Origin: Candidatus Nomurabacteria bacterium
GTDB taxonomy: Bacteria; Patescibacteriota; Minisyncoccia; Phycocordibacterales; UBA9973
NCBI GenBank assembly: GCA_943348755.1
Contig: CALQYS010000001.1
Span: 69,963 to 133,962 of the forward strand
Direction of reading: 5' to 3'
Length of the DNA stretch: 64,000 nucleotides
Shown: positions 18,820 through 54,730 of the stretch, in pieces
Layout: the number at the start of each line of letters is the position of its first letter
Numbering within the stretch: position 1 is the first letter of the stretch
Notes under the pieces: model-generated
Seen by the model: the letters and a program-made list of their open reading frames with translations, nothing else
Database searches by the model: none
Told to the model about the DNA's origin: nothing
Made by a program: the position numbers and the translations under genes

Positions 18820-20193
18820 TTACATCGAAGCGAGTTTAGACGCCAGACCTGTATAATTTTCTGGAGTTAATTTCAACAGCTCCTTTTTTATTTTCTCGGT
18901 TACTTCCAGTGTTTCGATAAATGCATGAATGTCAGAAAGTGTGATCTCTTTTCCCCGAGCTAATTCCTTTAATTTCTCATAAGGCATCTCTGCTCCTTCA
19001 CGGCGCAGGATGGTCTGGATGGCTTCAGTGATGACTTCCGGATGTACTACTAAATCTTCCTTAATTTTTTCTTCATTCACTTTTATTTTCCCCAAGCCCT
19101 TCATTAGCGACGTGTAAGCGAGGTATGAGTGCCCGAAAGCTGTGCCGAAGGCTCGCTCGACAGTAGAGTCTGACAAATCTCGCTGAAGGCGAGAAATTGG
19201 AAGCTTGCGAGCAAAGAATTCAAACAAAGCATTCGCCAGGCCCAGGTTCCCTTCACTATTTTCGAAATCAATCGGATTTATTTTGTGCGGCATAGTTGAT
19301 GAACCCGTCTCCCCCGCTTTCGGTATTTGCCCTACCCAACCATCAGAGATATATCTCCACATGTCTTGGTTTAAGTCTAGAAGGATGGTATTTATAGCCC
19401 TGATTATGTCGAAAATAGCCGCGTAGCTATCATGACATTCTATTTGAGTGGTGATTAAGTTAACTTCGAGTTTTTGCGAACGATCTTTATTAAAGCTTTC
19501 AATAAACTTTTCACTGAATTCTATCCAGTCAATACTTGGGTAAGCGGCTATATGGGCATTGTAGTTACCAGTAGCGCCATTTAATTTGGCTTGTATTTTT
19601 ATACTTTGTAATCCTGCGAGTCTTTTTTCGAGACGAGCCACAAATACCTTCATTTCCTTACCAAAAGTCGTCGGGCTGGCTGACTGACCATGTGTACGAG
19701 CGAGCATAGGTAGATCGGCATATTTTTTTGCGAGGTTATTTAATTCTTTGATTATTTTAGAAATTTCAGGGATTATTACTTTCTCCAAAGAATCAGAAAG
19801 TATAAGTGCATAAGAAATATTATTTGTGTCTTCAGAAGTAATAGCAAAATGCAACCATTCAGTGCAGTCTTTGAGGGATGTTTTGGCAAGTTTTTCCTTT
19901 AGAAAATATTCCACCGCTTTCATGTCATGGTTTGTGGTCTCCTCTAGTTTTTTTATTTCTTCGTAAGAAGCATCGTCAAACCTTTCGTAAAGTTCTCTGA
20001 CCATTTTTATCTCAGCTGCAGTGAATTTACGTAAAGCTGTCTTACCCGATGCAGACAGCGCAATCAAGTACTCCCCCTCCATCATCACTCGGTATTTCAT
20101 CAGTGCCTGCTCAGAGAAATACTCCGCAAGCGGGCGAGTTTTATTAAAATATCTTCCGTCCAAAGGACTTATGGGGTTGATTGAGTTTTTCAT
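18820..20193 (-). CDS. purB: Adenylosuccinate lyase
   Basis: SPLDGRY N-terminal motif; fumarase/lyase family signature region GSSTMPHKINP. Confidence 0.95.
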   Translation of the reverse strand: MKNSINPISPLDGRYFNKTRPLAEYFSEQALMKYRVMMEGEYLIALSASGKTALRKFTAAEIKMVRELYERFDDASYEEIKKLEETTNHDMKAVEYFLKEKLAKTSLKDCTEWLHFAITSEDTNNISYALILSDSLEKVIIPEISKIIKELNNLAKKYADLPMLARTHGQSASPTTFGKEMKVFVARLEKRLAGLQSIKIQAKLNGATGNYNAHIAAYPSIDWIEFSEKFIESFNKDRSQKLEVNLITTQIECHDSYAAIFDIIRAINTILLDLNQDMWRYISDGWVGQIPKAGETGSSTMPHKINPIDFENSEGNLGLANALFEFFARKLPISRLQRDLSDSTVERAFGTAFGHSYLAYTSLMKGLGKIKVNEEKIKEDLVVHPEVITEAIQTILRREGAEMPYEKLKELARGKEITLSDIHAFIETLEVTEKIKKELLKLTPENYTGLASKLASM

Positions 20194-21128
20194 TATATTT
20201 TATATTTCTTTAAATTATTCTCTATTCTTTTTAAAGTATCTTCTCCTTCGTTGATTTGGAACTTTTCTCCCGTTATCTGTTCATATATTTTAATGTATCG
20301 ACGAGAGAGCTCGATCACCATATCGGTTGGAGCTTTGGGTAGTTTCTCGTCTTTATATGGATCACAATTTTCTTTAAACCATAAACGCAAGAATTCTTTA
20401 TCGAAATTTTCCGGTTCTAGACCTTTCTCTATCCTTTCTTTGTATGTATTTGCCTGCCAGTAGCGGGAAGAGTCTGGAGTGTGGATCTCATCTATCAGCA
20501 TGACTTTACCATCAGGCGTGAGTCCGAATTCATATTTGGTGTCTACTAGTATTAGTCCCCTTGTTAAGGCAATTTCCTGTCCACGAGCGAAAAGTTTCAA
20601 AGATATATCGCAGACCTGTTTCCAAATTTCTGGTTTCATCATTTTTTCTTCTAAAATGATTTTACTTGTCAGCGGGCGGTCATGAGCTTCAAACTTGGTA
20701 GTTGGAGTGATAATTGGCACATCGAGCTTTTGATTTTTCTTTATGCCCTCTTTAAGGGTCATATCTCCAAAAACTCTTTCCCCCTTTTGATACAAGGTCC
20801 AGATAGATGTGCCCGTCACTCCGGTGATATATCCACGCACAACCATCTCGACTGGCAGCACGGTGCATTTCTTGCCGACGACGACGTTCGGATCAGGGAA
20901 ATCAATGGCGTGATTTTGCACTATGTCTTTGGTATTTTCGAACCAGAATTTACTGATCTGAGTCAATACTTGGCCTTTGTATGGCACTAGGGCTAAATTT
21001 CTATCAAAAGCAGAATACCTGTCAGTTGAAATCATAATAACCTTATCTTTTTGATTGTAGACGTCGCGTACTTTACCGACATATTTTTCCCCTAAGTTTT
21101 TAAAATCTGTTTTTTCTAGAATGTTCAT
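20193..21128 (-). CDS. purC: SAICAR synthetase (long form)
   Basis: YVGKVRDVY N-terminal motif; 311 aa. Confidence 0.9.
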   Translation of the reverse strand: MNILEKTDFKNLGEKYVGKVRDVYNQKDKVIMISTDRYSAFDRNLALVPYKGQVLTQISKFWFENTKDIVQNHAIDFPDPNVVVGKKCTVLPVEMVVRGYITGVTGTSIWTLYQKGERVFGDMTLKEGIKKNQKLDVPIITPTTKFEAHDRPLTSKIILEEKMMKPEIWKQVCDISLKLFARGQEIALTRGLILVDTKYEFGLTPDGKVMLIDEIHTPDSSRYWQANTYKERIEKGLEPENFDKEFLRLWFKENCDPYKDEKLPKAPTDMVIELSRRYIKIYEQITGEKFQINEGEDTLKRIENNLKKYKI

Positions 21129-21164
21129 AACGCAGAGTAATTTGATTTTTCTTTTATAATCATA

Positions 21165-22208
21165 TTAATTAAACCAATTTAATACTTCTTTTAAAATGAC
21201 CTGCTTATTCCCTTTCACTACTCTACCTATTTCGTAGCTCTCCACACCGCACTTTTTCAGGTGGCTCTGTATTGTATCTACAAAATCTTTCTTCACCACT
21301 GCCGTCATGCCTACTCCCATATTAAATGTCCTCATCATATCATTATCTTCCAGATCCCCAAATTTTTTCAATACCTTAAAAATGTTCAAAATTTTGATTT
21401 TACCGATATCAATCTCCGCATTTAAATTCTCAGGCAAGATTCTATTCAAATTTTCTTTTATTCCGCCTCCTGTGATGTGTGCGAGTCCTACCAATCCGTC
21501 GTTTCCAAACAAATCCTTCAAGCAGTTGTAGTAGCCAAAATGTGGAGTGAGGATACTTTCTATAAAATTCTTGCCATCAACTTTTTCTTTTAAAATTTCT
21601 GGACTCTTCTCCATTATTTTCTGCACAAGGGAGAAGCCATTTGTATGTATGCCTCTTGAAGCTAGACCCAAGACCACATCTCCTTCTTGTATTTTAGAGC
21701 CGTCGATTATTTTTTTCTTTTCTACCACGCCTACGATGCTAGCGGTCAAAATGTAAGTTCCTATGGCAAGTACACTCGGCTGTTCCGAGGTCTCGCCTCC
21801 AGTCAATACGCAGTCATTTTCTTTACATGCTTTAGAAAAAGCGGAAACCATTTTTAGGATTATTTCTTTGTCTATTTTCCCGCAGACGATGCAGTCTTGG
21901 ACAGATAGGGGTTTGGCTCCCATGACTATTGCATCATTAACTAGGTGATTTATTAAATCAAAACAAATGGTGTCTATACTTCTATGTTTTAAGGCCAACT
22001 TTTGCTTTGAGCCGGGCTCTTCTGTCTTAAACACTAGCACCGGTTCTTGATATTCAGGAAAAGATCCGTCGAACAAAGTAGCAAAAGCGCCTGCTTTGTT
22101 CAGCACGCGCGCATTTCCACTATTATTTAAACTTTTAGCCATTTCATTTTTCGTCGCATTGGCTTTGTCTATATCAACTCCTGAAGTTTTATACGACAAT
22201 TTCGGCAT
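21165..22208 (-). CDS. purM: AIR synthetase
   Basis: LSYKTSGVDIDKANAT N-terminus; start set at MPKLSYK, 1 nt after the purE stop. Confidence 0.9.
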   Translation of the reverse strand: MPKLSYKTSGVDIDKANATKNEMAKSLNNSGNARVLNKAGAFATLFDGSFPEYQEPVLVFKTEEPGSKQKLALKHRSIDTICFDLINHLVNDAIVMGAKPLSVQDCIVCGKIDKEIILKMVSAFSKACKENDCVLTGGETSEQPSVLAIGTYILTASIVGVVEKKKIIDGSKIQEGDVVLGLASRGIHTNGFSLVQKIMEKSPEILKEKVDGKNFIESILTPHFGYYNCLKDLFGNDGLVGLAHITGGGIKENLNRILPENLNAEIDIGKIKILNIFKVLKKFGDLEDNDMMRTFNMGVGMTAVVKKDFVDTIQSHLKKCGVESYEIGRVVKGNKQVILKEVLNWFN

Positions 22209-22209
22209 T

Positions 22210-22731
22210 TTATTTATTCTGAAGATATTGCTTGTATCCAACTTTTGAAAGCTTCTCCCCCTTCGTCTCTATCTCTTTGCTCATCTTTTCTTTGTAAGCG
22301 ATCAATTTTCTCTCTAAATCTTTATCAGACAAGGCGAGCATCTGTACAGCCAAAATACCAGCGTTTTTACCTCCATTTATCCCAACGGTGGCGACAGGCA
22401 CCCCGGGAGGCATCCCCACTGTAGAGAGGAGTGAATCAAGTCCGTCTAGACTTTTGGTTTTTATTGGAATTCCTATTACAGGTAGAGTAGTGAGTGAAGA
22501 TACTACACCAGCCAAATGAGCTGCTCCCCCTGCACCCGCAATAATTATTTTTAATCCACGATCTTTTACATTAGTTACATATTTATGCACGATCTCGGGA
22601 GAGCGATGCGCCGAAGCGACTGTGATCTCATAAGACACTCCGAACTCTTCCAGCACTTTCGCTGCCTCAGACATCACTTCTAGATCTGAATCCGAACCCA
22701 TGAGTATGGAAACCTTTGTGTCTTTTTTCAT
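22210..22731 (-). CDS. purE: PurE (N5-CAIR mutase / AIR carboxylase family)
   Basis: VSILMGSDSDLEVM...ASAHRSPE conserved PurE motifs; 173 aa. Confidence 0.9.
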   Translation of the reverse strand: MKKDTKVSILMGSDSDLEVMSEAAKVLEEFGVSYEITVASAHRSPEIVHKYVTNVKDRGLKIIIAGAGGAAHLAGVVSSLTTLPVIGIPIKTKSLDGLDSLLSTVGMPPGVPVATVGINGGKNAGILAVQMLALSDKDLERKLIAYKEKMSKEIETKGEKLSKVGYKQYLQNK

Positions 22732-22777
22732 TTGCTCTATCTTATCATTTTTTTAATTTAAAACAACCTAAAAACTA

Positions 22778-22826
22778 GCTTAAAACGAAAAGGACCCTGC
22801 ATCGCGCGATGCGCGCAATGCAGGGT
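22778..22826 (-). terminator. Intrinsic terminator (GC-rich hairpin plus U-tract) after the high-GC ORF
   Basis: Hairpin CCCTGCATCGCGCG-at-GCGCGCAATGCAGGG (14-bp stem, one mismatch) followed on the minus strand by UCCUUUUCGUUUUAAG. Confidence 0.5.
22781..22794. repeat. Direct repeat copy 1: TAAAACGAAAAGGA (identical 14-mer at 23765-23778)
   Basis: Exact 14/14 identity between the U-tract regions of the two terminators flanking the high-GC block. Confidence 0.7.
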
Positions 22827-22897
22827 ATCCTTGGTCGATCAGACGATTTCTCGTCCGGCCCAGAATCTACGTCTGAGCTCGGTGATGTGAGGCAGGC

Positions 22898-23566
22898 TTA
22901 CGCCGCCTGCAATGTGCCCTCACCACGGCTGGCCGGCTGGGGTTCGGTGGGCGCGTAGCCTTGTTCGGCGGTGCCGGGATCACCAGCAGGTCCAGCGGGC
23001 AGCTGATCGGCGTCACCAGGTTTGGCGGTCACAGTGGTGTTCTCAGCGCCGAGTTCTTCGCGGAGCTGCGGCGTAGCGGCCGGCTTCAAGAAATGCCTCG
23101 CCGCCAGTTCGTGGAACTTCGTCGCATCAATGAGCGGGTTGATGGCCGCCGCGTGAGTGATGCCGGTCAAGTTGAGGCTAAATTCTGCCTCGATGCCTGC
23201 GATCGTGGGGGCGTCGAATTCATAGCCTCCCGCGAATGCGTTCCATTTTCCGCGCTCAGTCACGTCGTCGAGTAAGTTGCCTTCTTGGCCCCGGATCCAC
23301 GCCAGGAACTCCGGAAACGACGGCAGGTGGTCGAGCGAGGTGATCCACTGGTTCAGGGCTTCACGCTTCACGTTCAAGCCCCGGGTCTTGTCCTGGTAGC
23401 CCTCGAGGATGAGCAGGTCGAACCCGTCACCGCGGCCCCATTCGTCAACCGTGGCCTTGATCATCTCGATCAGGATCTTCTGCCACAGGCGCAGGAGGTG
23501 GGCCCAACCAGTGAACACATCGGCAAAGCCAGACGGATGCAGCGGGAGTAGTTGTAGTGTTTTCAT
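22898..23566 (-). CDS. Hypothetical protein encoded in a high-GC (about 62%) block, with a Pro/Ala/Gly-rich C-terminal tail
   Basis: 222-aa ORF, the longest in an abrupt GC jump. It has its own promoter and terminator. No family recognised. Low-complexity tail (PGDADQLPAGPAGDPGTAEQGYAPTEPQPASRGEG) is typical of high-GC taxa. Confidence 0.5.
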   Translation of the reverse strand: MKTLQLLPLHPSGFADVFTGWAHLLRLWQKILIEMIKATVDEWGRGDGFDLLILEGYQDKTRGLNVKREALNQWITSLDHLPSFPEFLAWIRGQEGNLLDDVTERGKWNAFAGGYEFDAPTIAGIEAEFSLNLTGITHAAAINPLIDATKFHELAARHFLKPAATPQLREELGAENTTVTAKPGDADQLPAGPAGDPGTAEQGYAPTEPQPASRGEGTLQAA

Positions 23567-23723
23567 GCGTTTGTTTTTGTTGTATGTTTCTGATGACCAT
23601 CACGCGAACCTAAGTGGGTCCGTTTGTTGTGTGACAGTCAGCCAAATTACGATGTATTTACATGCATAATCTCGCCGACTGCCACAAATTTCACATCAAT
23701 TTTAAAGAACAAATAACTACGTT

Positions 23724-23751
23724 ATATTACATTTTTTTGCTATTTTGTCAA
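23724..23751 (-). promoter_or_regulatory. Sigma70-like promoter TTGACA-16-TAATAT oriented toward the high-GC ORF
   Basis: Minus strand reads TTGACAaaatagcaaaaaaatgTAATAT; ORF start about 150 nt downstream. Confidence 0.4.
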
Positions 23752-23764
23752 TATTGGATGGGTC

Positions 23765-23778
23765 TAAAACGAAAAGGA
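23765..23778. repeat. Direct repeat copy 2: TAAAACGAAAAGGA
   Basis: Identical to 22781-22794. Confidence 0.7.
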
Positions 23779-23807
23779 GCCGGCATACGATTAGAACGTA
23801 GTCCGGC
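23765..23807 (-). terminator. Intrinsic terminator after the small-peptide micro-operon
   Basis: Hairpin GCCGGcaTACG-attagaa-CGTAgtCCGGC followed on the minus strand by UCCUUUUCGUUUUAG. Confidence 0.45.
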
Positions 23808-23852
23808 TTCTCCTTGAGAGTTAATTAGTAACCCCCACAACTGTTTCTCGGT

Positions 23853-24026
23853 TCACGCCGAGTACATGTTCAGGAACAAGACGAGAATGCCCGTTCCTAG
23901 ATACACCAAACCTAAACCCATCCCAGTCACGAGGACTGGGAAGAGGATGGGGTGTTTCCTCCACCACAGGCGAAGCGCATACAAATGCAGCGTCTCGTCG
24001 ACCATCAACATTAGTTCTTCTTTCAT
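23853..24026 (-). CDS. Small hydrophobic peptide 3 (57 aa)
   Basis: Hand-translated: MKEELMLMVDETLHLYALRLWWRKHPILFPVLVTGMGLGLVYLGTGILVLFLNMYSA. One TM. Below the 60-aa ORF-track cutoff. Confidence 0.35.
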   Translation of the reverse strand: MKEELMLMVDETLHLYALRLWWRKHPILFPVLVTGMGLGLVYLGTGILVLFLNMYSA

Positions 24027-24038
24027 AGCTTTCGTGGG

Positions 24039-24143
24039 TTAATTTTTAATCACCTCCAACAATGCCAGGAATACGATTCCGGCAAATGCCAGCCCCAAGA
24101 GTAAGGGGCACCAAAACCCATATCGACGGATTATTTTTTCCAT
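24039..24143 (-). CDS. Small hydrophobic peptide 2 (34 aa)
   Basis: MEKIIRRYGFWCPLLLGLAFAGIVFLALLEVIKN; one TM; 12 nt upstream of peptide 3. Confidence 0.3.
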   Translation of the reverse strand: MEKIIRRYGFWCPLLLGLAFAGIVFLALLEVIKN

Positions 24144-24164
24144 ATTCTCCTTTTGGTTGTTGAG

Positions 24165-24263
24165 TTACCAGTGATTCTTAAGCCACACCGTTCCTGCTAT
24201 CAAGAGAACAAGCAGGACGAGACCAATTGTATGAGGAAGTGCAAACTCCTTGAATTGTTTCAT
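24165..24263 (-). CDS. Small hydrophobic peptide 1 (32 aa)
   Basis: MKQFKEFALPHTIGLVLLVLLIAGTVWLKNHW; one TM; first gene after the promoter at 24385-24413. Confidence 0.3.
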   Translation of the reverse strand: MKQFKEFALPHTIGLVLLVLLIAGTVWLKNHW

Positions 24264-24384
24264 TGTGAGTGCATTGTTTTGTTTTTTTAGTTTAGCTACG
24301 GAATACAAATTACAAAAAAATAAGCTGTATTCCACAGCCAAACACAACGTGAACCAAATTTTTAAAGAACCATCTTACCCTTGT

Positions 24385-24413
24385 ATTATATACTTTTTTA
24401 AGCCAAAAGTCAA
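24385..24413 (-). promoter_or_regulatory. Consensus-like sigma70 promoter TTGACT-17-TATAAT driving the small-peptide micro-operon
   Basis: Minus strand reads TTGACTtttggcttaaaaaagtaTATAAT, starting 15 nt downstream of the purH stop. The roughly 115-nt leader contains an 8-bp stem-loop (24300-24333). Confidence 0.45.
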
Positions 24414-24427
24414 TAGAACCTTAAATC

Positions 24428-25975
24428 TTAATGCTTAAAATGTCTAAATCCAGTAGCCACCATCGCCATATTGTAGGTATTCGCCATATCTATGGATGCT
24501 TGGTCGTTCTTTGAGCCTCCGGGCTGGATGACAGCCGTGACGCCCATCTTGCCTGCTAGCTCTACGCAGTCTGGAAATGGAAAGAACGCCTCAGAGGAAA
24601 GCACTGAGCCGTTGAGCGAGAACCCAAACTTCCCTGCTTTATCTATAGCTTGCTTGAGCGCATCAATTCGAGAAGTCTGTCCACAACCCATGGCAAGCAG
24701 TGTGCCGTCTTTGACGAGGGCGACAGAGTTCGACTTTAAATGTTTTGTAGCAATGGCTGCGATGAGTAAATCCTTTTTCTCGGACTCTGTCGGCGCGCGC
24801 TTGGTCGTTACTTTCAGGTCTCCTTCAGTCTCTACATGAGTGTCTCTATCTTGAATAAGTAATCCATTAAAACAAGTACGGACTTGTCTGTTCGGGAACA
24901 TAGGATTCTTCCCCGCCTGCACCAGCTGTGCTGAAGGCATTGCGGGCAGGCATTTTAGAATCCTGCAATCCTTTTTCTCCATTAATATATCGAGAGCACC
25001 TTTTTCAAAGTCTGGAGCAATGATGACTTCGATAAAAAGCTTTTGCTTTTTAATTAGTTTTGCTATATCTTCGGTTATTGTCCTGTTCCCTGCCAATATT
25101 CCACCGAAAGCCGACAATGGGTCTGCATTATAAGCTGCCTTGTATGCTTCAAAAAGTTTGCCTTCGGGTCGCACCGCCAGACCGCATGCATTCATGTGCT
25201 TGATAATGACGAAAGCTGGATCTGTAAAATCACTTACTGCAAGTATTGCTGCTTCTGTGTCTATTAAATTATTAAAAGAAAGTTCTTTGCCATGAAGCTG
25301 GGTGAAGCTCTCAGCGAGACTGCCGACGAATTCTGCTTTTTGGTGCGGGTTCTCTCCGTAGCGGAGCTCGGTGCCTTGGAAGTATCCGCGGATAGCGCTG
25401 TCGTAATGGCTTGTCACTTCAAATGCGTTACCAGCAAACTTCTTGCGCTCTTCTAGGGTTGTCTCATTTCCCTTTTTTAAAATGTCAGCTAGTTCTGCGT
25501 ATTGATTCTTGGAAGGTATAACCACTACGTCATTGAAATTCTTCGCGGCCGCACGAATTAGAGATATTCCGCCGATGTCTATCTTCTCTATTATCTCCTC
25601 TTCTGTTCCGCCCTGATTGTTTCTTTTGGCCAGAGTTTCTTCAAATGGATATAGGTCCACTATCACGAGGTCTATGTCTTCGATCTTGTGTTTAGCCTTT
25701 TCTTTTTGATCGTCTGTATTGTCTCGGCGATTTAAAATCCCACCAAAGATTTGTGGTTGAAGCGTCTTTACCCTTCCACCAAAAAGCGCTGGATAGTTAG
25801 TAATGGATTCGACTTCAGTGACAGACACACCTAATTTACGAATAAATTCTGCCGTCCCACCAGTCGAAATGATTTTGACGTCCTGTTTAGCGAGGAGCTT
25901 TACTATCTCGTCCAGCCCGTCTTTATTAAAAACCGAAATCAGCGCTGAGTTAATCTTCTTTTTCATTGAGGGCAT
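24428..25975 (-). CDS. purH: Bifunctional AICAR transformylase / IMP cyclohydrolase
   Basis: N-terminal MGS-like IMPCH domain (ALISVFNKDGL...ISTGGTA) and C-terminal AICARFT domain; 515 aa. Confidence 0.95.
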   Translation of the reverse strand: MPSMKKKINSALISVFNKDGLDEIVKLLAKQDVKIISTGGTAEFIRKLGVSVTEVESITNYPALFGGRVKTLQPQIFGGILNRRDNTDDQKEKAKHKIEDIDLVIVDLYPFEETLAKRNNQGGTEEEIIEKIDIGGISLIRAAAKNFNDVVVIPSKNQYAELADILKKGNETTLEERKKFAGNAFEVTSHYDSAIRGYFQGTELRYGENPHQKAEFVGSLAESFTQLHGKELSFNNLIDTEAAILAVSDFTDPAFVIIKHMNACGLAVRPEGKLFEAYKAAYNADPLSAFGGILAGNRTITEDIAKLIKKQKLFIEVIIAPDFEKGALDILMEKKDCRILKCLPAMPSAQLVQAGKNPMFPNRQVRTCFNGLLIQDRDTHVETEGDLKVTTKRAPTESEKKDLLIAAIATKHLKSNSVALVKDGTLLAMGCGQTSRIDALKQAIDKAGKFGFSLNGSVLSSEAFFPFPDCVELAGKMGVTAVIQPGGSKNDQASIDMANTYNMAMVATGFRHFKH

Positions 25976-25993
25976 TTTAGCACAATAGTATCA

Positions 25994-27535
25994 TTACTCA
26001 AATTCTGTCGTAGCGGGGGGTTTGGGGGTCATGTCGAAGAAGACGCGGACGATGTCTTTATGCTTGGTGAGAGCACTAGTGATCTCGTTTATAACGGCTT
26101 CTGGGAAGTAATAGCCTTTTGCAGTCATGAAGTCTACAGTCTGCACAGCGCGGACGGCTAGAGAGTGTCCATAGACGCGTTCATCCCCTTTTACTCCGAC
26201 GGAGTTTACACCTAGGAGGGCGACGATGAGCTGGGAGATTTCTTTATTCAAATTATGTTTCTTTAAAATATCGGCGACAGTCTCATCTGCTTCTCGTACA
26301 AGCTCGATGTTTTCTTTGGATACAGGTGTACCCACAACTCGCAGGAATAGTCCGGGGCCTGGAAAAGGATTCCTTTCATACACAGCTGGTGGGAGTTTCA
26401 ATACACGAGCGAGTTCGCGAACTTCGTATTTAAATAGATTTCTAAAAGGATGTAGGTCTTCCACTTCCCATGAAAGGCCGACGTTGTGGTGTGTCTTGAT
26501 CATGGCTGATTCTCCTGCTTTACCGCTCTCGATGATGTCTGTGGCGAGCGTTCCCTGTACGATGTAACCCGCTTGATGTTTCGCTATTTGTTCTTCAAAT
26601 TTTTGTTTGTATACTTCACGGAATTTTGCGCGTTTTTCTTCTCCATCTATCGTCGTGCCAATATTTTTTATAAATTCTTTCGCCGCGTCTATGATTACCA
26701 GATTTTTACTAGCGTTTTTACCTAAGGCACTCGTAGTGTTTGCCTTTAATTCTTCTACTTCGCCGGCTCGTAGCCCACCAGTGTCGATGGCGACGCATAT
26801 AAGTCTCTCATTTAAGACTGGCGCGAGCACTGCTGCGAGTGTCGTTGAGTCTACTCCGCCGGAAACGCCTAAGATTAAATTCTTTTTGTCTTTGCTCATG
26901 ATGTCCAAGACTTCTTTTTGTATTTCATGAATCAGATTTATCGGATCCCAGTCTTTTACACAACCAGAAAGGTCGAGGAAATTCTGGAGTATCTTTTTAC
27001 CTTCTTTGGTGTCTACCACTTCTGGGTGAAATTGTATGCCGAGCACTCGATTGTTTTTATCAGTCATGGCAGCCACTCCGCCGGATGTAGCGATAGAGGT
27101 AAAACTCTTTGGGAGTTTAGTAACTGTATCTCCATGACTTGCCCAGACTTCTGTCTTTTCTTTGATGCCTTTAAAAAGTGGATGCCCGGTGTCCGGAGTC
27201 ACTGTGGCTGGTCCGTATTCGCGGTGCGCGAGTGGACGCTCGACAGTGCCGCCGAGCTTGTGTGCGAGAAGCTGCATGCCATAGCACACGCCGAGGACAA
27301 AATATTTTTGGCCGGTAGTGTCGAGAGATTTTGGTAGTTCAGGTGTACCTTCACTATGCACGCTCCAGTGGCTGCCGGAGAGGATGACTGATTTTAGAGT
27401 ATTTTTCTTGAGCCAATCATCAGCCTTTATCGGAGGGAGTATGAGGCTGCGTACTCCGAGCTCGCGCAGAGTCCGCCCGATGACCAGCGTATATTGCGAG
27501 CCGTAATCCACGATCAGTATTTGTATACTATTCAT
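25994..27535 (-). CDS. guaA: GMP synthase (glutamine-hydrolysing)
   Basis: Class I GATase N-domain (GVCYGMQ), ATP-PPase SGGVDS motif, C-terminal dimerisation domain. Confidence 0.95.
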   Translation of the reverse strand: MNSIQILIVDYGSQYTLVIGRTLRELGVRSLILPPIKADDWLKKNTLKSVILSGSHWSVHSEGTPELPKSLDTTGQKYFVLGVCYGMQLLAHKLGGTVERPLAHREYGPATVTPDTGHPLFKGIKEKTEVWASHGDTVTKLPKSFTSIATSGGVAAMTDKNNRVLGIQFHPEVVDTKEGKKILQNFLDLSGCVKDWDPINLIHEIQKEVLDIMSKDKKNLILGVSGGVDSTTLAAVLAPVLNERLICVAIDTGGLRAGEVEELKANTTSALGKNASKNLVIIDAAKEFIKNIGTTIDGEEKRAKFREVYKQKFEEQIAKHQAGYIVQGTLATDIIESGKAGESAMIKTHHNVGLSWEVEDLHPFRNLFKYEVRELARVLKLPPAVYERNPFPGPGLFLRVVGTPVSKENIELVREADETVADILKKHNLNKEISQLIVALLGVNSVGVKGDERVYGHSLAVRAVQTVDFMTAKGYYFPEAVINEITSALTKHKDIVRVFFDMTPKPPATTEFE

Positions 27536-29059
<1,524 letters not shown>

Positions 29060-29060
<1 letters not shown>

Positions 29061-30397
29061 TGAAAGCTAAGAATAAAGTTAAATCAGGCTTCATCGACGT
29101 AGTGGTGGGTCTGCAGTGGGGCGATGAGGGTAAAGGTAAAAATATAGATGAGCTTCTCTCTCACGGAGCTTATACTGGAGTCGCACGTTTTCATGGCGGA
29201 GCAAATGCCGGTCATACTATTAAATTAGGAGATAAAACTTTTGTGGGGCACATCGTGCCTTCTGGTTGTTTTCATAAGAATATTGAATTGTATATCGGTA
29301 ATGGTGTTGTAGTCGATGCAGTTTCGTTAATCAAAGAGAAAAACGAAATTAAAAATTTAGGTTTTGATATCACAAAACGTCTTTATGTTTCGAATCGCGC
29401 AAAGTTAGTTTCGCACCTTCATCCTTTTTTAGACCAGGCTGATGAATATCGCCGAAATAAATTGGGGACAAAAGTAGGCACCACTTCGAGAGGCATTGGC
29501 CCAGCTTATAGTGATGTCCGAGCCAGGAGGGCTCTTCTCGTTGGAGATGTGTTATCACCGGATTTTGCCGAAAAAGAAGTTACCCTTTCTGAATTTCATA
29601 TGAATCTTTTGAATATGTATCAGGATAAATATGGTTTTGAAATTAATTTGGGAAAAATAAAAGAAGCGAAAGAAAAATGGGACGATGCCATAAAAGAACT
29701 CCGAAAGTTACAAATTTGTGACTTATCCTTACTTATACAAAGTAGACTTTCTAAAGGGAAAAATATCCTAGCTGAAGGCGCGCAAGCAATTATGCTCGAC
29801 ATAGACTTTGGTGATTATCCAAACGTCACCAGCAGCAATACCCTGCCAGCCAATGTTTGCCTCGGCCTCGGCGTACCCCATACGATGCTACGAGACGTCT
29901 ACGGCGTTATTAAGGCATATACAACAAAAGTAGGAGGTGGAAACTTTCCATCCAGAATGAAAGATCAAACTCTAGAAAAAGCCTTTCAGGACGCAGGGCA
30001 TGAATTTGGAGCTACCACCGGCCGGCCTCGGATGTGCGGCTGGCTTGACCTTTTCGCCCTTCGCCATGCCATCGTTCTCTCTGGCGCAAATAAAATTTTT
30101 ATCAATAAAGCGGATATTTGCTTGAGCGATAAAATAAAAGTGGTTACTGGATATAAAAGTAAGGGAAAAATTGTAAAAGAATTTCCACTTTATCTAAGCG
30201 ACGTCGCAGATGTCATAACCGAAGAAATGCCGGGTTGGGGTGATGCTAATTACGGGATCAATAAAAAACAAAAAACTTCTAAAGAACTTTCTTCATATTT
30301 AAAATACATAAAAGGTAAACTTTCCGATCTAAACGTCAAAATAATCTCCGTCGGCACCGGCCCAGACCGAGACCATTTCTTCAATTGGGAGAAGTAG
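29060..30397 (+). CDS. purA: Adenylosuccinate synthetase
   Basis: GLQWGDEGKGK P-loop-like N-terminus; GATTGRPRMCGWLD motif; 1-nt overlap with the guaB stop. Confidence 0.95.
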
Positions 30398-30490
30398 ATC
30401 TAACTTGTAATTTATCTATAATATTGCATAATATTCTCAAACGAGGTCTTATACCTCAAAACAAACCGCAGTTCAGTAACGAAAACCTCT

Positions 30491-30820
30491 ATGAAAACGT
30501 TCTTTGTAAACCTTAATGCGTCGATTGACGTAAAAGCCGACAACTTCGTGGCAGGCTACCACAACCGTCCGATCATCCTTTTAGCAATGCTGCTTGTTGG
30601 AATAATGACCTTCCTTGGGGCCATTATGAACACGCTGTGTTTCTTTGGGATTATTCCGCCATTGCGGAATGACGAGTGGGCTGTATGGCATTACAGCTTT
30701 ACCACTCTCTCATTCCTTTGTCTGCCTTTGGTCGCTATGTGGTGGGTTCACATTTGCAGGAATGCTTCTTGGCATCTCTACCATTGCATGGATAAAACAC
30801 TTGGAGACTTTGTGGACTGA
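30491..30820 (+). CDS. Hypothetical small membrane protein in an orphan GC-elevated region
   Basis: 109-aa ORF with 2-3 hydrophobic helices, preceded by TTGTAA-16-CATAAT. Region GC is about 45-50% versus about 38% for flanking genes. No homology recognised. Confidence 0.3.
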   Translation: MKTFFVNLNASIDVKADNFVAGYHNRPIILLAMLLVGIMTFLGAIMNTLCFFGIIPPLRNDEWAVWHYSFTTLSFLCLPLVAMWWVHICRNASWHLYHCMDKTLGDFVD

Positions 30821-30937
30821 GTCCCATGCTGAATCATTAATCGCCCAAACGATGAGGAATCGTCCGAGGGCGATTTTTCATTTCTGCTTAGCTTCCCTAG
30901 ATTATCATATATGATATGTTAAGGAATTATTAGTGCG

Positions 30938-32221
30938 TTAGTTCTTGCCTAACGCAGACTTGCCTATATCTTTTCTATACTGCATCCCTTCAAATGATAT
31001 TTTTTCGATAGCTTTGTAAGCTTTATCAAGTGCTTCCTTCATAGAGCTTCCAGTCGCTGAGACTCCAAGTACTCGTCCGCCGTTAGTTGTGAGGTCTTGC
31101 CTAACAATTTTAGTGCCCGCATGAAAGATAATGACGTCTGGCTGCATACCTGCTTCCATTATTCCAGAAATTACTTTGCCTTTTTCGTAACTCCCTGGAT
31201 ATCCACCTGAAGCAATAGCAATATTACATGCATATAGCTCTTTCCACTTTATTTTTAAGTCAGTAATTTTCCCATCGATACTGGCGTCGACGATATCGAG
31301 CAAGTCAGTATCAAGCAGTCGCATATATGTCTGAGTCTCAGGGTCGCCAAAACGCGCATTGAATTCAAAAACCTTTGGGCCTTCGGGGGTTAGCATTATT
31401 CCCGGATACAAAATGCCCACAAATGGTCTGCCCTCCCTTGCCATGCCTTCGATTGTTGGTTTGATGATTTCTTTCTCAATCCTTTTCATCATAGCGCTGT
31501 CTATGAATGGTAGTGGCGCGATGACTCCCATGCCACCAGTGTTCGGACCGACGTTGCCGTCAAAGATACGCTTGTGGTCTTGAGAACAAGGAAACATCTT
31601 AAAAGACTTTCCGTCAGAAATGGCGTGGGCTGAGATCTCTATTCCAGATAAGTATTCTTCGATAACTACTTCATTCCCCGCGTTACCGAAAACTTTTTTT
31701 ACGAGTACATCTTCGAGAGACCTCAAGGCTTCTTCCTTAGTTTGAGCCACAGTCACCCCTTTGCCGAGCGCGAGTCCGCTTGCTTTGATGACCACAGGTA
31801 CTGCCCCCTTTTCAACATACTTTTTTGCCTTCTCAAAATCATTAAATACTTCGTATTTTGCAGTGGGGACACCATGCCTCTTCATGAAGTCCTTCGCATA
31901 CGCTTTGGACCATTCGAGCTCGCTCGCAGCCTTTGTGGGGCCCCAGATGCGCAAACCTTCAGCCCTAAATGCATCGACTATACCTAGCGAGAGAGGATCA
32001 TCAGGCAAAGCCAGTGTTAGATCTATCTTTTCTCTCTTAGCGAATTCTACTAGTTTTGGGATATCTGTGGCAGAAATGGTAACGTTTGTCCCTAATTCAA
32101 GGGTGCCGGCATTACCTGGAGCAAAGTATAAACTTCCGGCTCGTTCAGACTGAGACACTTTCCACCCCACGGCATGTTCTCTACCTCCCCCGCCAATTAT
32201 TAAAATTTTCTGTTTTTGCAT
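30938..32221 (-). CDS. purD: Phosphoribosylamine-glycine ligase
   Basis: MQKQKILIIGGGGREHA N-terminus; ATP-grasp core; 427 aa. Confidence 0.95.
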   Translation of the reverse strand: MQKQKILIIGGGGREHAVGWKVSQSERAGSLYFAPGNAGTLELGTNVTISATDIPKLVEFAKREKIDLTLALPDDPLSLGIVDAFRAEGLRIWGPTKAASELEWSKAYAKDFMKRHGVPTAKYEVFNDFEKAKKYVEKGAVPVVIKASGLALGKGVTVAQTKEEALRSLEDVLVKKVFGNAGNEVVIEEYLSGIEISAHAISDGKSFKMFPCSQDHKRIFDGNVGPNTGGMGVIAPLPFIDSAMMKRIEKEIIKPTIEGMAREGRPFVGILYPGIMLTPEGPKVFEFNARFGDPETQTYMRLLDTDLLDIVDASIDGKITDLKIKWKELYACNIAIASGGYPGSYEKGKVISGIMEAGMQPDVIIFHAGTKIVRQDLTTNGGRVLGVSATGSSMKEALDKAYKAIEKISFEGMQYRKDIGKSALGKN

Positions 32222-32234
32222 CAGATTATATAAA

Positions 32235-32972
32235 TTAATATGCCAATGCTGTATCGTTATTTACACTTCTGACAGCTTGATTATAATAATATTTAACTCT
32301 ATCTAAAAAATGTGATAAAGAATTAGGATCCACATTTTCATAGCCAAATTCATATAGTGTATTATTTAATCTTTCCAAATTTCTAATTTCTACATGTTCT
32401 ATGGGTACTGCCTTGATTAAATTATCCATATCCCCGAAAACGAAATCTATCTCTGTTGGCTCATCTTTAGTTAAAATAAAGAAAGGTACATCATCTTTAT
32501 AAATTTCAATTCCCTCATGCGCTGCTTTTAAGCCTTCAGTAAAAAATTCTTCCAGAAATCTATCTAAATTAGAAAATTCTTTTATTTTTGGTCTACCAAA
32601 GCTTTCTACCGTGACCCTTCTGTGATTTTTGCTTCCAATACATATTTGATTATCTTTAAAACCCGTTGTCATCAATATACTCTCATTATCTTCACCTATT
32701 CTAAATGTTAGGAACACCCTTAAACCAGCCTTTTTTGCTCGAGAATAATTTTCAAATGCAAAGCTAGCCCTTTGAGTCGCACTACGCCACTCATTTGCTA
32801 AATATTTTTTTATTATAAATCTTTTTTTATGACCACCGATTTCAACCACTGCGTCAAAAATATTTCCGAAATTTCCTCCGTTAATTTTCTTTTCACTAAT
32901 TATTTCTACTTCAGTTTTCCCCCCAGTATCTTTTCTGAAAGAAAACCCAGTTGGTTCAAATTCGTTACTCAT
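32235..32972 (-). CDS. Hypothetical protein with protein-kinase-like motifs, embedded in the pur operon
   Basis: 245 aa. NGGNFGNIFDAVV resembles a GxGxFGxV glycine loop, followed by KRFIIKK (VAIK-like lysine) and a later IDFVFGD (DFG-like). This is reading of motifs only, not a confirmed fold. Confidence 0.55.
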   Translation of the reverse strand: MSNEFEPTGFSFRKDTGGKTEVEIISEKKINGGNFGNIFDAVVEIGGHKKRFIIKKYLANEWRSATQRASFAFENYSRAKKAGLRVFLTFRIGEDNESILMTTGFKDNQICIGSKNHRRVTVESFGRPKIKEFSNLDRFLEEFFTEGLKAAHEGIEIYKDDVPFFILTKDEPTEIDFVFGDMDNLIKAVPIEHVEIRNLERLNNTLYEFGYENVDPNSLSHFLDRVKYYYNQAVRSVNNDTALAY

Positions 32973-32984
32973 TTTTTTATTATC

Positions 32985-33596
32985 CTATAATTTTCCCAAA
33001 ACGTCCACATATAATTTATTTTCTTTTTTCTTAAGCCTTGAGTATAAAGATTCCACATTATCATTTTCTTCTACTTTTTCAAAAACTCTGCCTAAAACTG
33101 GCCCGAAATCAAAGTTTAAGGTCAAAAAGTGGATAGAGGAGCCGGCGAAGGTAGATTTTTGGTCTAAAAAGTTCTGGATAGCCTTAGTGGCGAGCATCCC
33201 TTTATTCCAAAGTGCCTTTGTGCCGTCTGGATTCTGTATTTCACCATTCGTAGTGTCTGGGATAAGCCCTGGGTGCAAATTCAAGATTTTATTTGGAAAA
33301 GCGGTGATGACTTCATTTAGAATTATTTTTTTCCAGCCAGCAAGGCACATGTAGTCGGGATTTATTTTTTGTAAAAGTGGAAGTAAAGTTTCCTTCTTCG
33401 AACATATTTCTATTTTCAGATTATGCTTTCTGGCTCGCTCCAACCCTGGAGTATTTTCCTTATCAGAGATCACAGCCGAGATTTCGGCATTAATTTTTCC
33501 AGATTCAACTCCGTCAATTATTGCTTGCAGGTTTGTGCCAGTGCCGGCATCAGAAATAAGAATGACAAGTTTCTTTTTAGTCTTTTGGGACATCAT
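32985..33596 (-). CDS. purN: GAR formyltransferase
   Basis: KLVILISDAGTGTNLQAIID N-terminus; formyltransferase fold; overlaps purF by 20 nt. Confidence 0.9.
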   Translation of the reverse strand: MMSQKTKKKLVILISDAGTGTNLQAIIDGVESGKINAEISAVISDKENTPGLERARKHNLKIEICSKKETLLPLLQKINPDYMCLAGWKKIILNEVITAFPNKILNLHPGLIPDTTNGEIQNPDGTKALWNKGMLATKAIQNFLDQKSTFAGSSIHFLTLNFDFGPVLGRVFEKVEENDNVESLYSRLKKKENKLYVDVLGKL

Positions 33597-35025: not shown

Positions 35026-35029
35026 TTTA

Positions 35030-54706: not shown

Positions 54707-54730
54707 ATTTTATATTGTATACTATATTTC

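What the first reader, a model, noticed from the sequence alone, without database searches (positions are those of the whole stretch)
23853..24413. Self-contained micro-operon of three tiny hydrophobic peptides (32, 34, 57 aa) with consensus promoter and terminator
Immediately downstream of purH lies a strong promoter (TTGACT-17-TATAAT) on the minus strand. It is followed by a 115-nt leader with an 8-bp/18-nt-loop hairpin, then three tandem ORFs spaced 21 and 12 nt apart. Each encodes a single predicted TM helix (MKQFKEFALPHTIGLVLLVLLIAGTVWLKNHW; MEKIIRRYGFWCPLLLGLAFAGIVFLALLEVIKN; MKEELMLMVDETLHLYALRLWWRKHPILFPVLVTGMGLGLVYLGTGILVLFLNMYSA). An intrinsic terminator closes the unit. None is in the ORF track (all under 60 aa). 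GC is intermediate (about 48%) and grades into the foreign block. Such peptide trios could be membrane-active toxins, bacteriocin-like peptides, or small subunits or regulators of a membrane complex.
Basis: seen in the sequence. Interest (0 to 1): 0.65.

Follow-up and report, generated by a model that had tools for sequence, protein, structure and literature searches.

The report
Orphan three-peptide cassette with boxA-hairpin leader
A small foreign insert in the purine gene cluster of an uncultured, probably ultra-small (Patescibacteria-like) bacterium carries its own strong promoter, a leader resembling the one in front of ribosomal RNA genes, three tiny membrane-peptide genes with no relatives anywhere, and its own terminator; the reusable leader is the more interesting part.

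Summary
On the minus strand there is a TTGACT-17-TATAAT promoter, a roughly 115-nt leader, three ATG ORFs (32, 34 and 57 aa; gaps of 21 and 12 nt) and an intrinsic terminator. The ORF tiling, codon periodicity and hydrophobicity all exceed chance.

- All three ORFs lie in one reading frame, separated only by single TAA stops.
- The leader hairpin is about 24 bp, not 8 bp.
- Eight to nine nt after the presumed transcription start lies GTTCTTTAAAA, a perfect match to the published boxA (Nus-factor) consensus GYTCTTTAANA.
- The unit is one of two adjacent sister cassettes. The second (22781-23751) has the same promoter, boxA, hairpin, A/C-rich start region and terminator tail, and carries a 62% GC DUF5069-like gene.

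A third, independent copy of the leader occurs in other metagenomes, in front of a 74-aa orphan gene. Its 12-bp lower stem covaries completely.

The peptides have no homologue among 1.84 billion representative proteins. All available copies of the locus are 100% identical, so conservation could not be tested.

Best reading: a horizontally acquired, moron-like expression cassette with a boxA plus RNase III-type leader that drives three co-translated single-pass membrane peptides. What the peptides do is unknown.

The parts
24385..24413 (-). Cassette A promoter, TTGACT-17-TATAAT (ATTGAC conserved in all three leader copies)
   Evidence: 11 of 12 positions; alignment
24360..24370 (-). boxA-like element GTTCTTTAAAA, about +9 to +19 of the presumed transcript
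   Evidence: only two matches to GYTCTTTAANA in the window, both at the same offset from the two promoters; consensus from PMC5725501
24294..24339 (-). Leader hairpin A: 12-bp lower stem, conserved 8-bp duplex (CAGCUUAU/GUAAUUUG) and a U6 loop
   Evidence: z = -3.3; register and covariation
24260..24291 (-). A/C-rich unstructured translation-start region (AAAAACAAAAC) with a 4-codon uORF (MHSQ*, 24260-24274) whose UGA overlaps the ORF1 AUG
   Evidence: sequence, repeat D2 (70% identical to the equivalent region of cassette B)
24165..24263 (-). ORF1, 32 aa, MKQFKEFALPHTIGLVLLVLLIAGTVWLKNHW, one TM-like segment, TAA stop
24039..24143 (-). ORF2, 34 aa, same frame as ORF1, AAGGAG 3 nt upstream of the ATG, one TM-like segment, TAA stop
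23853..24026 (-). ORF3, 57 aa, same frame, amphipathic charged N-terminus plus a Gly-rich hydrophobic segment, GC3 0.69, TGA stop; the only one of the three present in protein collections (P0005)
23765..23813 (-). Cassette A intrinsic terminator; tail TCCTTTTCGTTTTA identical to that of cassette B
   Evidence: fold, repeat D3
23724..23751 (-). Cassette B promoter, TTGACA-16-TAATAT
23700..23710 (-). Cassette B boxA-like element GTTCTTTAAAA
23631..23685 (-). Cassette B leader hairpin (12-bp lower stem of different sequence, same conserved duplex, 4-bp apical stem)
   Evidence: z = -6.3
22898..23566 (-). Cassette B cargo: 222-aa ORF, GC 0.62 and GC3 0.74, distant DUF5069-like protein with a Pro/Ala/Gly-rich tail
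22781..22830 (-). Cassette B intrinsic terminator (15-bp GC-rich stem plus TCCTTTTCGTTTTA)

Best explanation
The region is one of two tandem, self-contained expression cassettes inserted between purH and purE of an AT-rich, probably Patescibacteria-like (Nomurabacteria-like) genome in which most genes appear leaderless. I call it 'moron-like' after the autonomous promoter-gene-terminator units found in phages.

Each cassette uses the same lineage-specific scaffold: a consensus sigma-70 promoter; a boxA element at about +8 to +19; a 24-25-bp hairpin with a conserved inner duplex; an unstructured A/C-rich start region; and a terminator with a shared base and tail.

Inferred mechanism:
- The nascent boxA recruits NusB/NusE (S10) and the other Nus factors, as in ribosomal RNA (rrn) leaders, lambda nut sites, suhB and CRISPR leaders.
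- This makes transcription of the long untranslated leader and its foreign cargo resistant to Rho.
- The long duplex is an RNase III-type processing or stabilising element, like the stem that follows boxA in rrn leaders and the rIII hairpin in the lambda N leader.

In cassette A the cargo is three separate cistrons in one frame, translated by coupling or re-initiation across gaps of 21 and 12 nt. They yield three single-pass membrane peptides of 32, 34 and 57 aa that probably act together in the membrane.

Shown: the anatomy, the non-random coding signal, the orphan status, the scaffold family with covarying stems, and the compositional foreignness of the cargo.

Inferred: Nus binding, RNase III processing, translation of the peptides, and anything about their activity.
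For: Anatomy and statistics:
- Promoter, ORFs and terminator are as described.
- Three ATG ORFs in one frame occurred in 3 of 5000 shuffles.
- Codon-position heterogeneity gives p = 4.5e-6, and TM-like hydropathy is seen in 1% of random ORFs against 3 of 3 real ones.
- The cargo RNA is not unusually structured (z = -1.26), which argues against a structured non-coding RNA.

Scaffold:
- Cassettes A and B share the promoter, GTTCTTTAAAA, the hairpin, the start region and a 14-nt terminator tail.
- A third independent leader (L115/L116/L118) precedes a 74-aa orphan ORF that has its own terminator.
- In register, all 36 cells of the 12-bp lower stems pair while every position differs among the three copies; 0 of 100000 shuffles reach this. 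The 8-bp duplex nAGnUUAU/GUAAUUUG is conserved.
- That duplex pattern occurs only in these leaders in 1.31 Mb of held sequence, always with boxA upstream.

boxA:
- GTTCTTTAAAA fits the published consensus GYTCTTTAANA exactly (PMC5725501).
- The window has only two matches, both 13-14 nt after a -10 box.
- boxA lying close to the upstream arm of a long RNase III stem is the rrn layout (PMC4807359).
- boxA is known outside rRNA, at suhB and CRISPR leaders.

Foreignness:
- GC is 0.62 (GC3 0.74) for cargo B and GC3 is 0.69 for ORF3, against about 0.39 for the host, while the scaffold parts are about 0.30.
- In the host, 30 of 44 genes have TAnnnT 3-13 nt before the ATG, and only 7 of 44 have a Shine-Dalgarno-like core. 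Leaders of 115-155 nt are therefore exceptional here.

Separate cistrons rather than one broken gene:
- An ATG follows each TAA within 7 and 4 codons.
- Each segment starts with Met and charged residues followed by a hydrophobic stretch.
- There are no frameshifts.
Against: - There is no evidence of transcription, processing or translation.
- No relatives exist, so purifying selection on the three frames is untested.
- All three ORFs share one frame, separated by single TAA codons. This is also what a recently broken 3-TM gene would look like.
- ORF1 and ORF3 lack a Shine-Dalgarno sequence, and the one before ORF2 is only 3 nt from its ATG.
- The boxA assignment rests on 11 nt. The count of two matches in the window is not significant by itself: 23 of 100 shuffles have two or more.
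- Neither the organism's own rrn leader nor its nusB or rho genes could be examined.
- Only three independent leader copies are known.
- An intrinsic terminator at the end of a boxA-modified unit is slightly odd if antitermination is strong.
Confidence: 0.5

Rival explanations
1. The cargo of cassette A is the remnant of a single horizontally acquired gene for a roughly 147-aa, three-helix membrane protein. Two nonsense (TAA) mutations inactivated or split it. The three 'peptides' are its fragments, translated poorly or not at all.
For: - All three ORFs are in one frame, and read-through gives a plausible TM-loop-TM-loop-TM protein.
- Codon periodicity runs across all three segments.
- GC3 falls from 0.69 (ORF3) to 0.45 (ORF1), consistent with decay or amelioration in an AT-rich host.
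- C-to-T and G-to-T changes readily create TAA from CAA or GAA (established knowledge).
Against: - The read-through sequence has no homologue among 1.84 billion representative proteins.
- Each stop is followed within 7 and 4 codons by an in-frame ATG. My estimate of this arising by chance is about 1.5%, from a Met frequency of 2.4%.
- Each fragment starts with Met and charged residues.
- There is no frameshift, although indels usually accompany gene decay.
- Sharing one frame by chance has a probability of 1 in 9, which is not rare.
Confidence: 0.2
2. The peptides are a type I toxin-like or otherwise membrane-damaging module (toxin, abortive-infection or holin-like). It is kept silent by the structured leader or by an antisense RNA.
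For: - The ORFs are small and hydrophobic (under 60 aa) and lie behind a long structured 5' UTR.
- Promoter-like sites on the + strand occur at the same relative place in both cassettes (24361-24389 and 23701-23728). The second would read antisense into ORF3.
- The setting is a foreign island.
Against: - There is no match to any toxin or defence family.
- The + strand 'promoters' score 9 of 12 and are mirror images of boxA and the -10 box, so they are probably by-products of those elements.
- The same leader drives hydrophilic, non-toxin-like cargo (the DUF5069-like gene and the 74-aa ORF). The leader is therefore not toxin-specific.
- An operon of three unrelated peptides is not the usual type I layout.
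Confidence: 0.12
3. GTTCTTTAAAA is not a Nus-binding boxA. It is instead a DNA operator, or a promoter-proximal sigma-dependent pause element (it contains a -10-like TAAAAT at +11 to +16). The hairpin is a binding site for a lineage-specific regulator. On this reading the scaffold is a regulated promoter family, not an antitermination leader.
For: - The element sits very close to the start (+8 to +19) at a fixed 13-14 nt from the -10 box in all three copies.
- It contains TAAAAT in cassette B and in L115 (sequence).
- The conserved inner duplex with G.U pairs and a variable mismatch looks like a protein-recognition site.
Against: - The element matches the full 11-nt published boxA consensus exactly in 3 of 3 copies, while the flanks diverge.
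- boxA followed by a long stem is the rrn arrangement.
- No regulator gene is linked to either locus.
Confidence: 0.13
4. The three ORFs are chance open frames in a transcribed but non-coding spacer or small-RNA region of the island.
For: - Other frames of the same 411 nt also have few stops: 2-5 in four of the other five frames.
- There is no homologue and no conservation data.
Against: - The shuffle tests: 3 of 5000, and 1% per ORF for hydropathy.
- Three-base periodicity, p = 4.5e-6.
- The RNA is not unusually structured.
- No Rfam match above noise.
Confidence: 0.05

Closest known systems
[quoted passage not shown]
   Same: Strong consensus promoter. boxA matches GYTCTTTAANA a few nucleotides into the transcript. 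After a spacer of about 20 nt comes a long (24-25 bp) duplex of the size RNase III cuts.
   Different: The stem closes on itself with a short loop instead of enclosing an rRNA. The cargo is small protein-coding ORFs. The unit ends in an intrinsic terminator after 0.6-1 kb. No boxB or boxC is defined, and Nus binding was not tested.
Lambda pL-nutL-N leader, and boxA-regulated mRNAs and leaders (suhB 5' UTR; CRISPR array leaders)
   Same: boxA lies in the 5' leader of a non-rRNA transcription unit. In the lambda N leader (from my own knowledge) a large RNase III-sensitive hairpin lies between nutL and the start codon. boxA use outside rRNA is documented in PMC5725501 and PMC7665894.
   Different: There is no boxB-type short hairpin with a conserved loop; here the inner duplex is conserved, not the loop. 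No N-like protein is present. The host is a Patescibacteria-like organism. The scaffold is reused with different cargo.
Phage 'morons' (autonomous promoter-gene-terminator units inserted between two genes; from my own knowledge, Hendrix/Juhala 2000)
   Same: Each cassette has its own sigma-70 promoter and factor-independent terminator. It sits between two genes of an operon-like cluster (purH and purE). Its base composition differs from its neighbours.
   Different: The site is a chromosomal biosynthetic cluster, not a prophage. There are no PHROGs hits and no blastn match to phages or plasmids. The cassettes share an AT-rich, host-like scaffold around GC-rich cargo.
Small bacterial membrane proteins, type I toxins and multi-peptide leaderless bacteriocins (e.g. 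the 32-34-aa garvicin KS peptides; from my own knowledge)
   Same: Size range of 30-60 aa. One hydrophobic helix each. Tandem small ORFs in one transcript.
   Different: No sequence family match. The peptides are not paralogues of each other. They are strongly hydrophobic rather than cationic and amphipathic. No antitoxin RNA, transporter or immunity gene was identified.

Membership tests
boxA / Nus-factor leader | Sequence matches the boxA consensus (GYTCTTTAANA, PMC5725501) | tested here: met
   GTTCTTTAAAA in cassettes A and B and in L115/L116/L118; consensus quoted
boxA / Nus-factor leader | Element lies in the transcribed leader downstream of a promoter | tested here: met
   It lies 13-14 nt after the -10 hexamer in all three copies. 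The transcription start is inferred, not mapped.
boxA / Nus-factor leader | The same element is present in the organism's own rRNA leader or spacer | not testable with these tools
boxA / Nus-factor leader | NusB/NusE bind the element, and expression depends on boxA and the Nus factors | not testable with these tools
   Needs biochemistry or genetics. No nusB or rho gene was seen in the roughly 84 kb held, which is uninformative.
RNase III processing hairpin | Uninterrupted or near-perfect duplex of about two helical turns or more, conserved as a structure | tested here: met
   24-25 bp in all three copies; 36 of 36 lower-stem cells paired with full covariation
RNase III processing hairpin | Cleavage by RNase III | not testable with these tools
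   Needs an experiment or 5'-end transcriptomics
Phage moron | Own promoter and own terminator flanking the cargo, with atypical composition | tested here: met
Phage moron | Located within a phage or prophage genome | tested here: not met
   The flanks are guaA-purH and purE-purM-purC. No phage hits.
Type I toxin-antitoxin | Small hydrophobic toxin ORF (under 60 aa) | tested here: met
Type I toxin-antitoxin | Overlapping or adjacent antisense small RNA with its own promoter and terminator | tested here: inconclusive
   Only 9-of-12 promoter-like sites on the + strand, which mirror boxA and the -10 box. No + strand terminator.
Type I toxin-antitoxin | Membership of a known toxin family | tested here: not met
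   No Pfam, NCBIfam or PADLOC hit
Multi-peptide leaderless bacteriocin | Tandem ORFs of about 30-45 aa encoding mutually similar cationic peptides | tested here: not met
   The sizes fit, but the peptides are not similar to each other (best E = 0.07 over 12 TM residues) and are strongly hydrophobic
Multi-peptide leaderless bacteriocin | Linked immunity or ABC-transporter genes | tested here: not met
   The neighbours are purH, the DUF5069-like gene and purE
Integron cassette / attC | attC with conserved R boxes at the base of the hairpin; intI or an attC array; usually no promoter | tested here: not met
   Here the base of the hairpin is the variable part and the inner duplex is conserved. Each unit has its own promoter and terminator, and there is no integrase in the window ORF list.
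Any Rfam family | Covariance-model match at or near the gathering score | tested here: not met
   Only tRNAs at the gathering threshold. The best sub-threshold hits in 22700-24500 score 14-22 bits against cut-offs of 45-160.
DUF5069 (PF16798), for the cassette B cargo | Significant match to the family model or its members | tested here: inconclusive
   No Pfam hit at E <= 1. However, there is 31% identity to proteins annotated PF16798 (E 1e-4 database-wide, 3e-15 pairwise), with shared motifs HLxRLWQK and GDGFD.

The most novel reading that the evidence does not exclude
The promoter-boxA-hairpin...terminator scaffold is a lineage-specific, modular expression platform of Patescibacteria-like bacteria. 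These genomes otherwise use leaderless mRNAs. The platform is repeatedly found around orphan or foreign ORFs and lets them escape Rho-dependent silencing of foreign DNA by borrowing the rRNA antitermination and processing machinery. The covarying hairpins and terminators may also mark units that are exchanged as cassettes. On this reading the three peptides are one such cargo: a new hetero-oligomeric membrane-active peptide set.
Probability: 0.15. Interest if true: 0.8.

Novelty: new variant of a known kind. Interest (0 to 1): 0.5.

Why it matters
If the leader works as inferred, it extends boxA/Nus-dependent control to small protein-coding cassettes in the candidate phyla radiation (the Patescibacteria group), where transcription signals are almost unstudied. 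It would show how an organism dominated by leaderless mRNAs expresses newly acquired genes, and it would tie into Rho-mediated silencing of foreign DNA.

The leader is a compact, structurally covarying RNA element that is absent from Rfam. It could be modelled and searched for across genomes, and that search would also yield a catalogue of its cargo.

The three peptides are complete orphans. Their value is as candidates for new membrane-active small proteins, but without relatives or expression data they remain a hypothesis.

Tried and rejected
Searches for the peptides that found nothing:
- Pfam, NCBIfam, PHROGs and PADLOC gave no hit apart from a DUF6264 match at E = 0.11.
- A word-indexed search with the concatenated peptides found nothing at E <= 10.
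- An exhaustive phmmer search with the read-through sequence (X at the stops) found only ORF3 itself.

Searches for the DNA and the host:
- blastn of the 1.65-kb island against plasmids and phages found no match.
- The genome scan anchored on purH found a closest relative at 74% identity (L004, a 'Ca. Nomurabacteria' MAG), but that contig ends 142 nt after purH. The other hits are Bacteroidota at 50-57%, so no orthologous junction could be compared.
- Exact-protein look-ups returned only 100% identical copies, so no polymorphism was available.

Searches for more copies of the scaffold:
- The viral-contig scan for boxA...GTAATTTG gave 26 hits, all without a promoter or long hairpin. I judged them chance matches.
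- In the metagenome scan, L114 and L117 were judged chance matches, while L115 and L116 are real.
- Extending 10 kb beyond each end of the window found no further cassette and no rRNA.

Methods that failed:
- MAFFT/RNAalifold alignments of the hairpins were out of structural register. I counted the pairs by script instead.
- The AlphaFold model of the 222-aa protein had pLDDT 47 and was too poor for a fold search.

Context and literature checks:
- The neighbourhoods of DUF5069 homologues contain no small TM ORFs or shared scaffold.
- No paper in the library mentions DUF5069.

Ideas considered and rejected:
- Integron attC: the wrong part of the hairpin is conserved, and each unit has its own promoter.
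- Transcription attenuator in leader A: the small terminator-like hairpin at 24323-24339 is not conserved in the other two leaders.
- TAA recoding: host genes such as purH end in TAA.
- A structured non-coding RNA as cargo: z = -1.26.
Full report
WHAT IS THERE

On the minus strand, 14 nt after the purH stop codon (24428-24430), lies a TTGACT-17-TATAAT promoter (24413..24385). It matches 11 of 12 consensus positions and is the best site in 22500-25000.

| ORF | Coordinates | Length | Stop |
|---|---|---|---|
| ORF1 | 24165-24263 | 32 aa | TAA |
| ORF2 | 24039-24143 | 34 aa | TAA |
| ORF3 | 23853-24026 | 57 aa | TGA |

The gaps between them are 21 and 12 nt. A hairpin (GGAGAAGCCGG...CCGGCUCC) followed by UUUUCGUUUU closes the unit at 23765-23813. 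The simple terminator scan missed it because its loop exceeds 8 nt.

IS IT MORE THAN CHANCE?

- In 5000 dinucleotide-preserving shuffles of 23853-24263, only 3 had three or more ATG ORFs of at least 30 aa in one frame. Only 30 reached 123 aa in such ORFs.
- Base composition differs strongly between codon positions (pooled p = 4.5e-6; ORF3 alone 5e-4). T occupies 49% of second positions, which is the signature of hydrophobic coding sequence.
- Only 1% of random ATG ORFs of at least 30 aa from the shuffles contain a 19-residue window with mean Kyte-Doolittle hydropathy of 1.9 or more. All three real ORFs do (2.16, 2.67, 1.97).
- The cargo RNA is not unusually structured (z = -1.26).

The region is, or very recently was, protein-coding in this frame.

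(a) One reading frame. All three ORFs lie in the same frame and are separated only by single TAA codons. Read-through would give a plausible three-helix membrane protein.

(b) A longer hairpin. The leader hairpin is about 24 bp with a 6-nt loop (24294-24339), not 8 bp with an 18-nt loop.

(c) A sister cassette. The unit has a twin immediately downstream:

| Part | Cassette B |
|---|---|
| Promoter | TTGACA-16-TAATAT, 23751..23724 |
| Leader | about 155 nt |
| Cargo | 222-aa ORF, 22898-23566; GC 0.62, GC3 0.74, against a host at about 0.39 |
| Terminator | 22781-22830 |

The two cassettes share the following:
- the -35 region (ATTGAC);
- an A-rich spacer;
- GTTCTTTAAAA, 13-14 nt after the -10 box;
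- a long hairpin ending in GTAATTTG;
- an A/C-rich start region (AAAAACAAAAC or AAAAACAAAC);
- an identical 14-nt terminator tail, TCCTTTTCGTTTTA, on a stem whose base (AAGGA/UCCUU) is shared while the upper part differs.

THE LEADER IS A FAMILY

One metagenome scan with ATTGAC-N-GTTCTTTAAAA-N-GTAATTTG returned four loci. Two of them, L115 and L116, plus the strain variant L118, carry a genuine third copy. It consists of:
- TTGACA-17-TATACT;
- GTTCTTTAAAA;
- a 25-bp hairpin;
- AAGGAG;
- a 74-aa hydrophilic ORF;
- a terminator.

This copy lies between genes for a Sigma70_r4/HARE-HTH protein and a DUF8128 protein. The 74-aa ORF is also an orphan: only its own cluster was found.

I put the three hairpins in register on the conserved duplex:
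- The 12-bp lower stem is paired in 36 of 36 cells, although every position differs among the three copies. None of 100000 arm shuffles reaches this.
- The 8-bp inner duplex nAGnUUAU/GUAAUUUG is conserved, including two G.U pairs and one variable or mismatched position.
- In 1.31 Mb of held sequence this duplex pattern occurs only in these leaders, always with the box upstream and 12 of 12 lower-stem pairs.
- Rfam has nothing comparable.

WHAT THE BOX IS

GTTCTTTAAAA is an exact match to GYTCTTTAANA, the boxA consensus derived by Baniulyte et al. (PMC5725501). It is the only match to that pattern in the window, occurring twice, each time at the same offset from a consensus promoter. The bare count is not significant, since 23 of 100 shuffles have two or more matches. 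The positional coincidence in three independent leaders is what carries the argument.

[quoted passage not shown] I therefore read the leader as a Nus-factor (NusB/S10) loading site followed by an RNase III-type duplex. This is an inference from sequence. Binding, cleavage and the organism's own rrn boxA could not be examined.

THE HOST

Genes purA, guaB, guaA and purH are syntenic with, and 72-84% identical at the protein level to, a groundwater MAG deposited as 'Candidatus Nomurabacteria' (L004). All other purH relatives are at most 57% identical.

Of 44 host genes, 30 have a TAnnnT hexamer ending 3-13 nt before the ATG (background 22%). Ten have TGnTAnnnT (background 1.1%). Only 7 have a Shine-Dalgarno-like core. 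Most host mRNAs therefore appear leaderless, and the 115-155-nt leaders of the two cassettes are exceptional.

The island (about 22781-24427) interrupts an otherwise continuous cluster: guaA-purH / purE-purM-purC-purB. The scaffold parts are AT-rich like the host (GC about 0.30), whereas the cargo is GC-rich. The scaffold therefore looks native to the lineage and the cargo looks foreign.

THE CARGO

None of the three peptides has a family match in Pfam, NCBIfam, PHROGs or PADLOC.

No homologue was found in either protein search:
- concatenated, against 5.8 billion clusters;
- as a read-through sequence, by exhaustive phmmer against 1.84 billion representatives, which found only ORF3 itself.

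The peptides are not paralogues of one another.

The cassette B protein is a distant DUF5069-like protein (31% identity; shared motifs HLxRLWQK and GDGFD). Its function is unknown, and its AlphaFold model was too poor to use (pLDDT 47).

THREE CISTRONS OR ONE BROKEN GENE?

Sharing one frame by chance has a probability of 1 in 9. Under the broken-gene model, three things would have to be coincidental or secondarily selected:
- an in-frame ATG 7 and 4 codons after each TAA, which I estimate at about 1.5% from a Met frequency of 2.4%;
- Met-plus-charged N-termini on each fragment;
- the absence of any frameshift.

I therefore favour three coupled cistrons (about 0.5) over a recently split gene (about 0.2), but I cannot exclude the latter. 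The Shine-Dalgarno sequence before ORF2 is only 3 nt from its ATG, and ORF1 and ORF3 have none. Initiation would have to rely on the unstructured A-rich region (ORF1) and on coupling or re-initiation (ORF2, ORF3). A 4-codon uORF (MHSQ*, 24260-24274) overlaps the ORF1 AUG in an AUGA arrangement. By alignment it occupies the position of cassette B's start codon (repeat D2).

MECHANISM I COMMIT TO

Steps 1-3 are inferred. The anatomy they rest on is shown.

1. A strong sigma-70 promoter fires. boxA, emerging at about +9 to +19, recruits NusB/S10 and the other Nus factors. This makes RNA polymerase resistant to Rho across the long untranslated leader and the compositionally foreign cargo.
2. The 24-bp hairpin is cut, or acts as a 5' stabiliser, leaving an mRNA that starts near the A/C-rich initiation region.
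3. The three small ORFs are translated in sequence and insert as single-pass membrane peptides. The intrinsic terminator insulates purE.

What the peptides do in the membrane is unknown. Toxin, bacteriocin and subunit readings each fail at least one defining feature where I could test it (see the membership table).

COMPARISON AND NOVELTY

The cassette architecture works like a phage moron, but it is not in a prophage. The leader works like an rrn or nut leader, but it drives small ORFs and closes its stem on itself. The cargo resembles small membrane proteins but belongs to no family.

I rate it a new variant of a known kind. Interest is moderate (0.5). The peptides alone are unverifiable orphans. 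The reusable boxA-hairpin scaffold in a leaderless-mRNA lineage is a concrete, searchable and testable lead.

Noticed in passing
window 22781-23751 (-): Sister cassette with the same promoter, boxA, hairpin, start region and terminator tail. It carries a 222-aa ORF (GC 0.62, GC3 0.74) distantly related (31% identity) to 155-aa DUF5069 (PF16798) proteins, plus a Pro/Ala/Gly-rich C-terminal tail. Only one identical copy exists in public collections.
   Followed up: yes
L115 1400-1830 (-), L116 970-1400 (-), L118 1330-1800 (+): Independent cassette in other metagenomes (Ga0209541, Ga0209211, ERZ4903055): the same leader scaffold in front of a 74-aa hydrophilic orphan ORF with its own terminator, between genes for a Sigma70_r4/HARE-HTH protein and a DUF8128 protein. 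The sequence AAAACGAAAAG, the reverse complement of the window's terminator-tail core, lies 10 nt upstream of its -35 box.
   Followed up: partly
whole window, e.g. 27536-27560 and 54707-54730: Most host genes have a -10-like (often TGnTAnnnT) element 3-13 nt before the ATG and no Shine-Dalgarno sequence, so the mRNAs appear leaderless. Two divergent gene pairs (guaA/guaB; 53441-54706 and 54731-55591) are separated by only 24-25 nt, with near-palindromic overlapping -10 boxes (GCTAGTATAC..., TTGTATAC...).
   Followed up: partly
window 5021-6754 (+), 35888-37555 (-), 37603-39264 (-): Three paralogous proteins of 553-577 aa (38-42% identical to each other) with an N-terminal CxxC motif and no Pfam domain on record. 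Two of them are adjacent, next to the purine cluster.
   Followed up: partly
window 18820-35857, plus L119 and L120: A genome whose closest relative is labelled Ca. Nomurabacteria carries a near-complete de novo purine pathway in one cluster (purL-type genes, purF, purN, purD, purA, guaB, guaA, purH, purE, purM, purC, purB). It also carries riboflavin synthesis, glutamine synthetase, RelA/SpoT and EPSP synthase nearby. This is metabolically rich for a candidate-phyla-radiation organism, so the taxonomic label deserves checking.
   Followed up: no
window 32235-32972 (-): A 245-aa ORF with very low GC (0.31; GC3 0.21) and no Pfam hit sits between purN and purD. It is compositionally atypical in the opposite direction to the island.
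   Followed up: no
window 24361-24389 (+) and 23701-23728 (+): Weak promoter-like sites (9 of 12) on the opposite strand at the same relative position in both cassettes, formed by the reverse complements of boxA (TTTAAA) and the -10 box. The second would read antisense into ORF3. Probably a by-product, but it is the only candidate for an antisense RNA.
   Followed up: partly
window 24323-24339 (-): Within leader A, a small alternative hairpin (GGCUGUGGAAUACAGCU) followed by UAUUUUUUU was flagged as terminator-like. It is not conserved in the other two leaders.
   Followed up: partly
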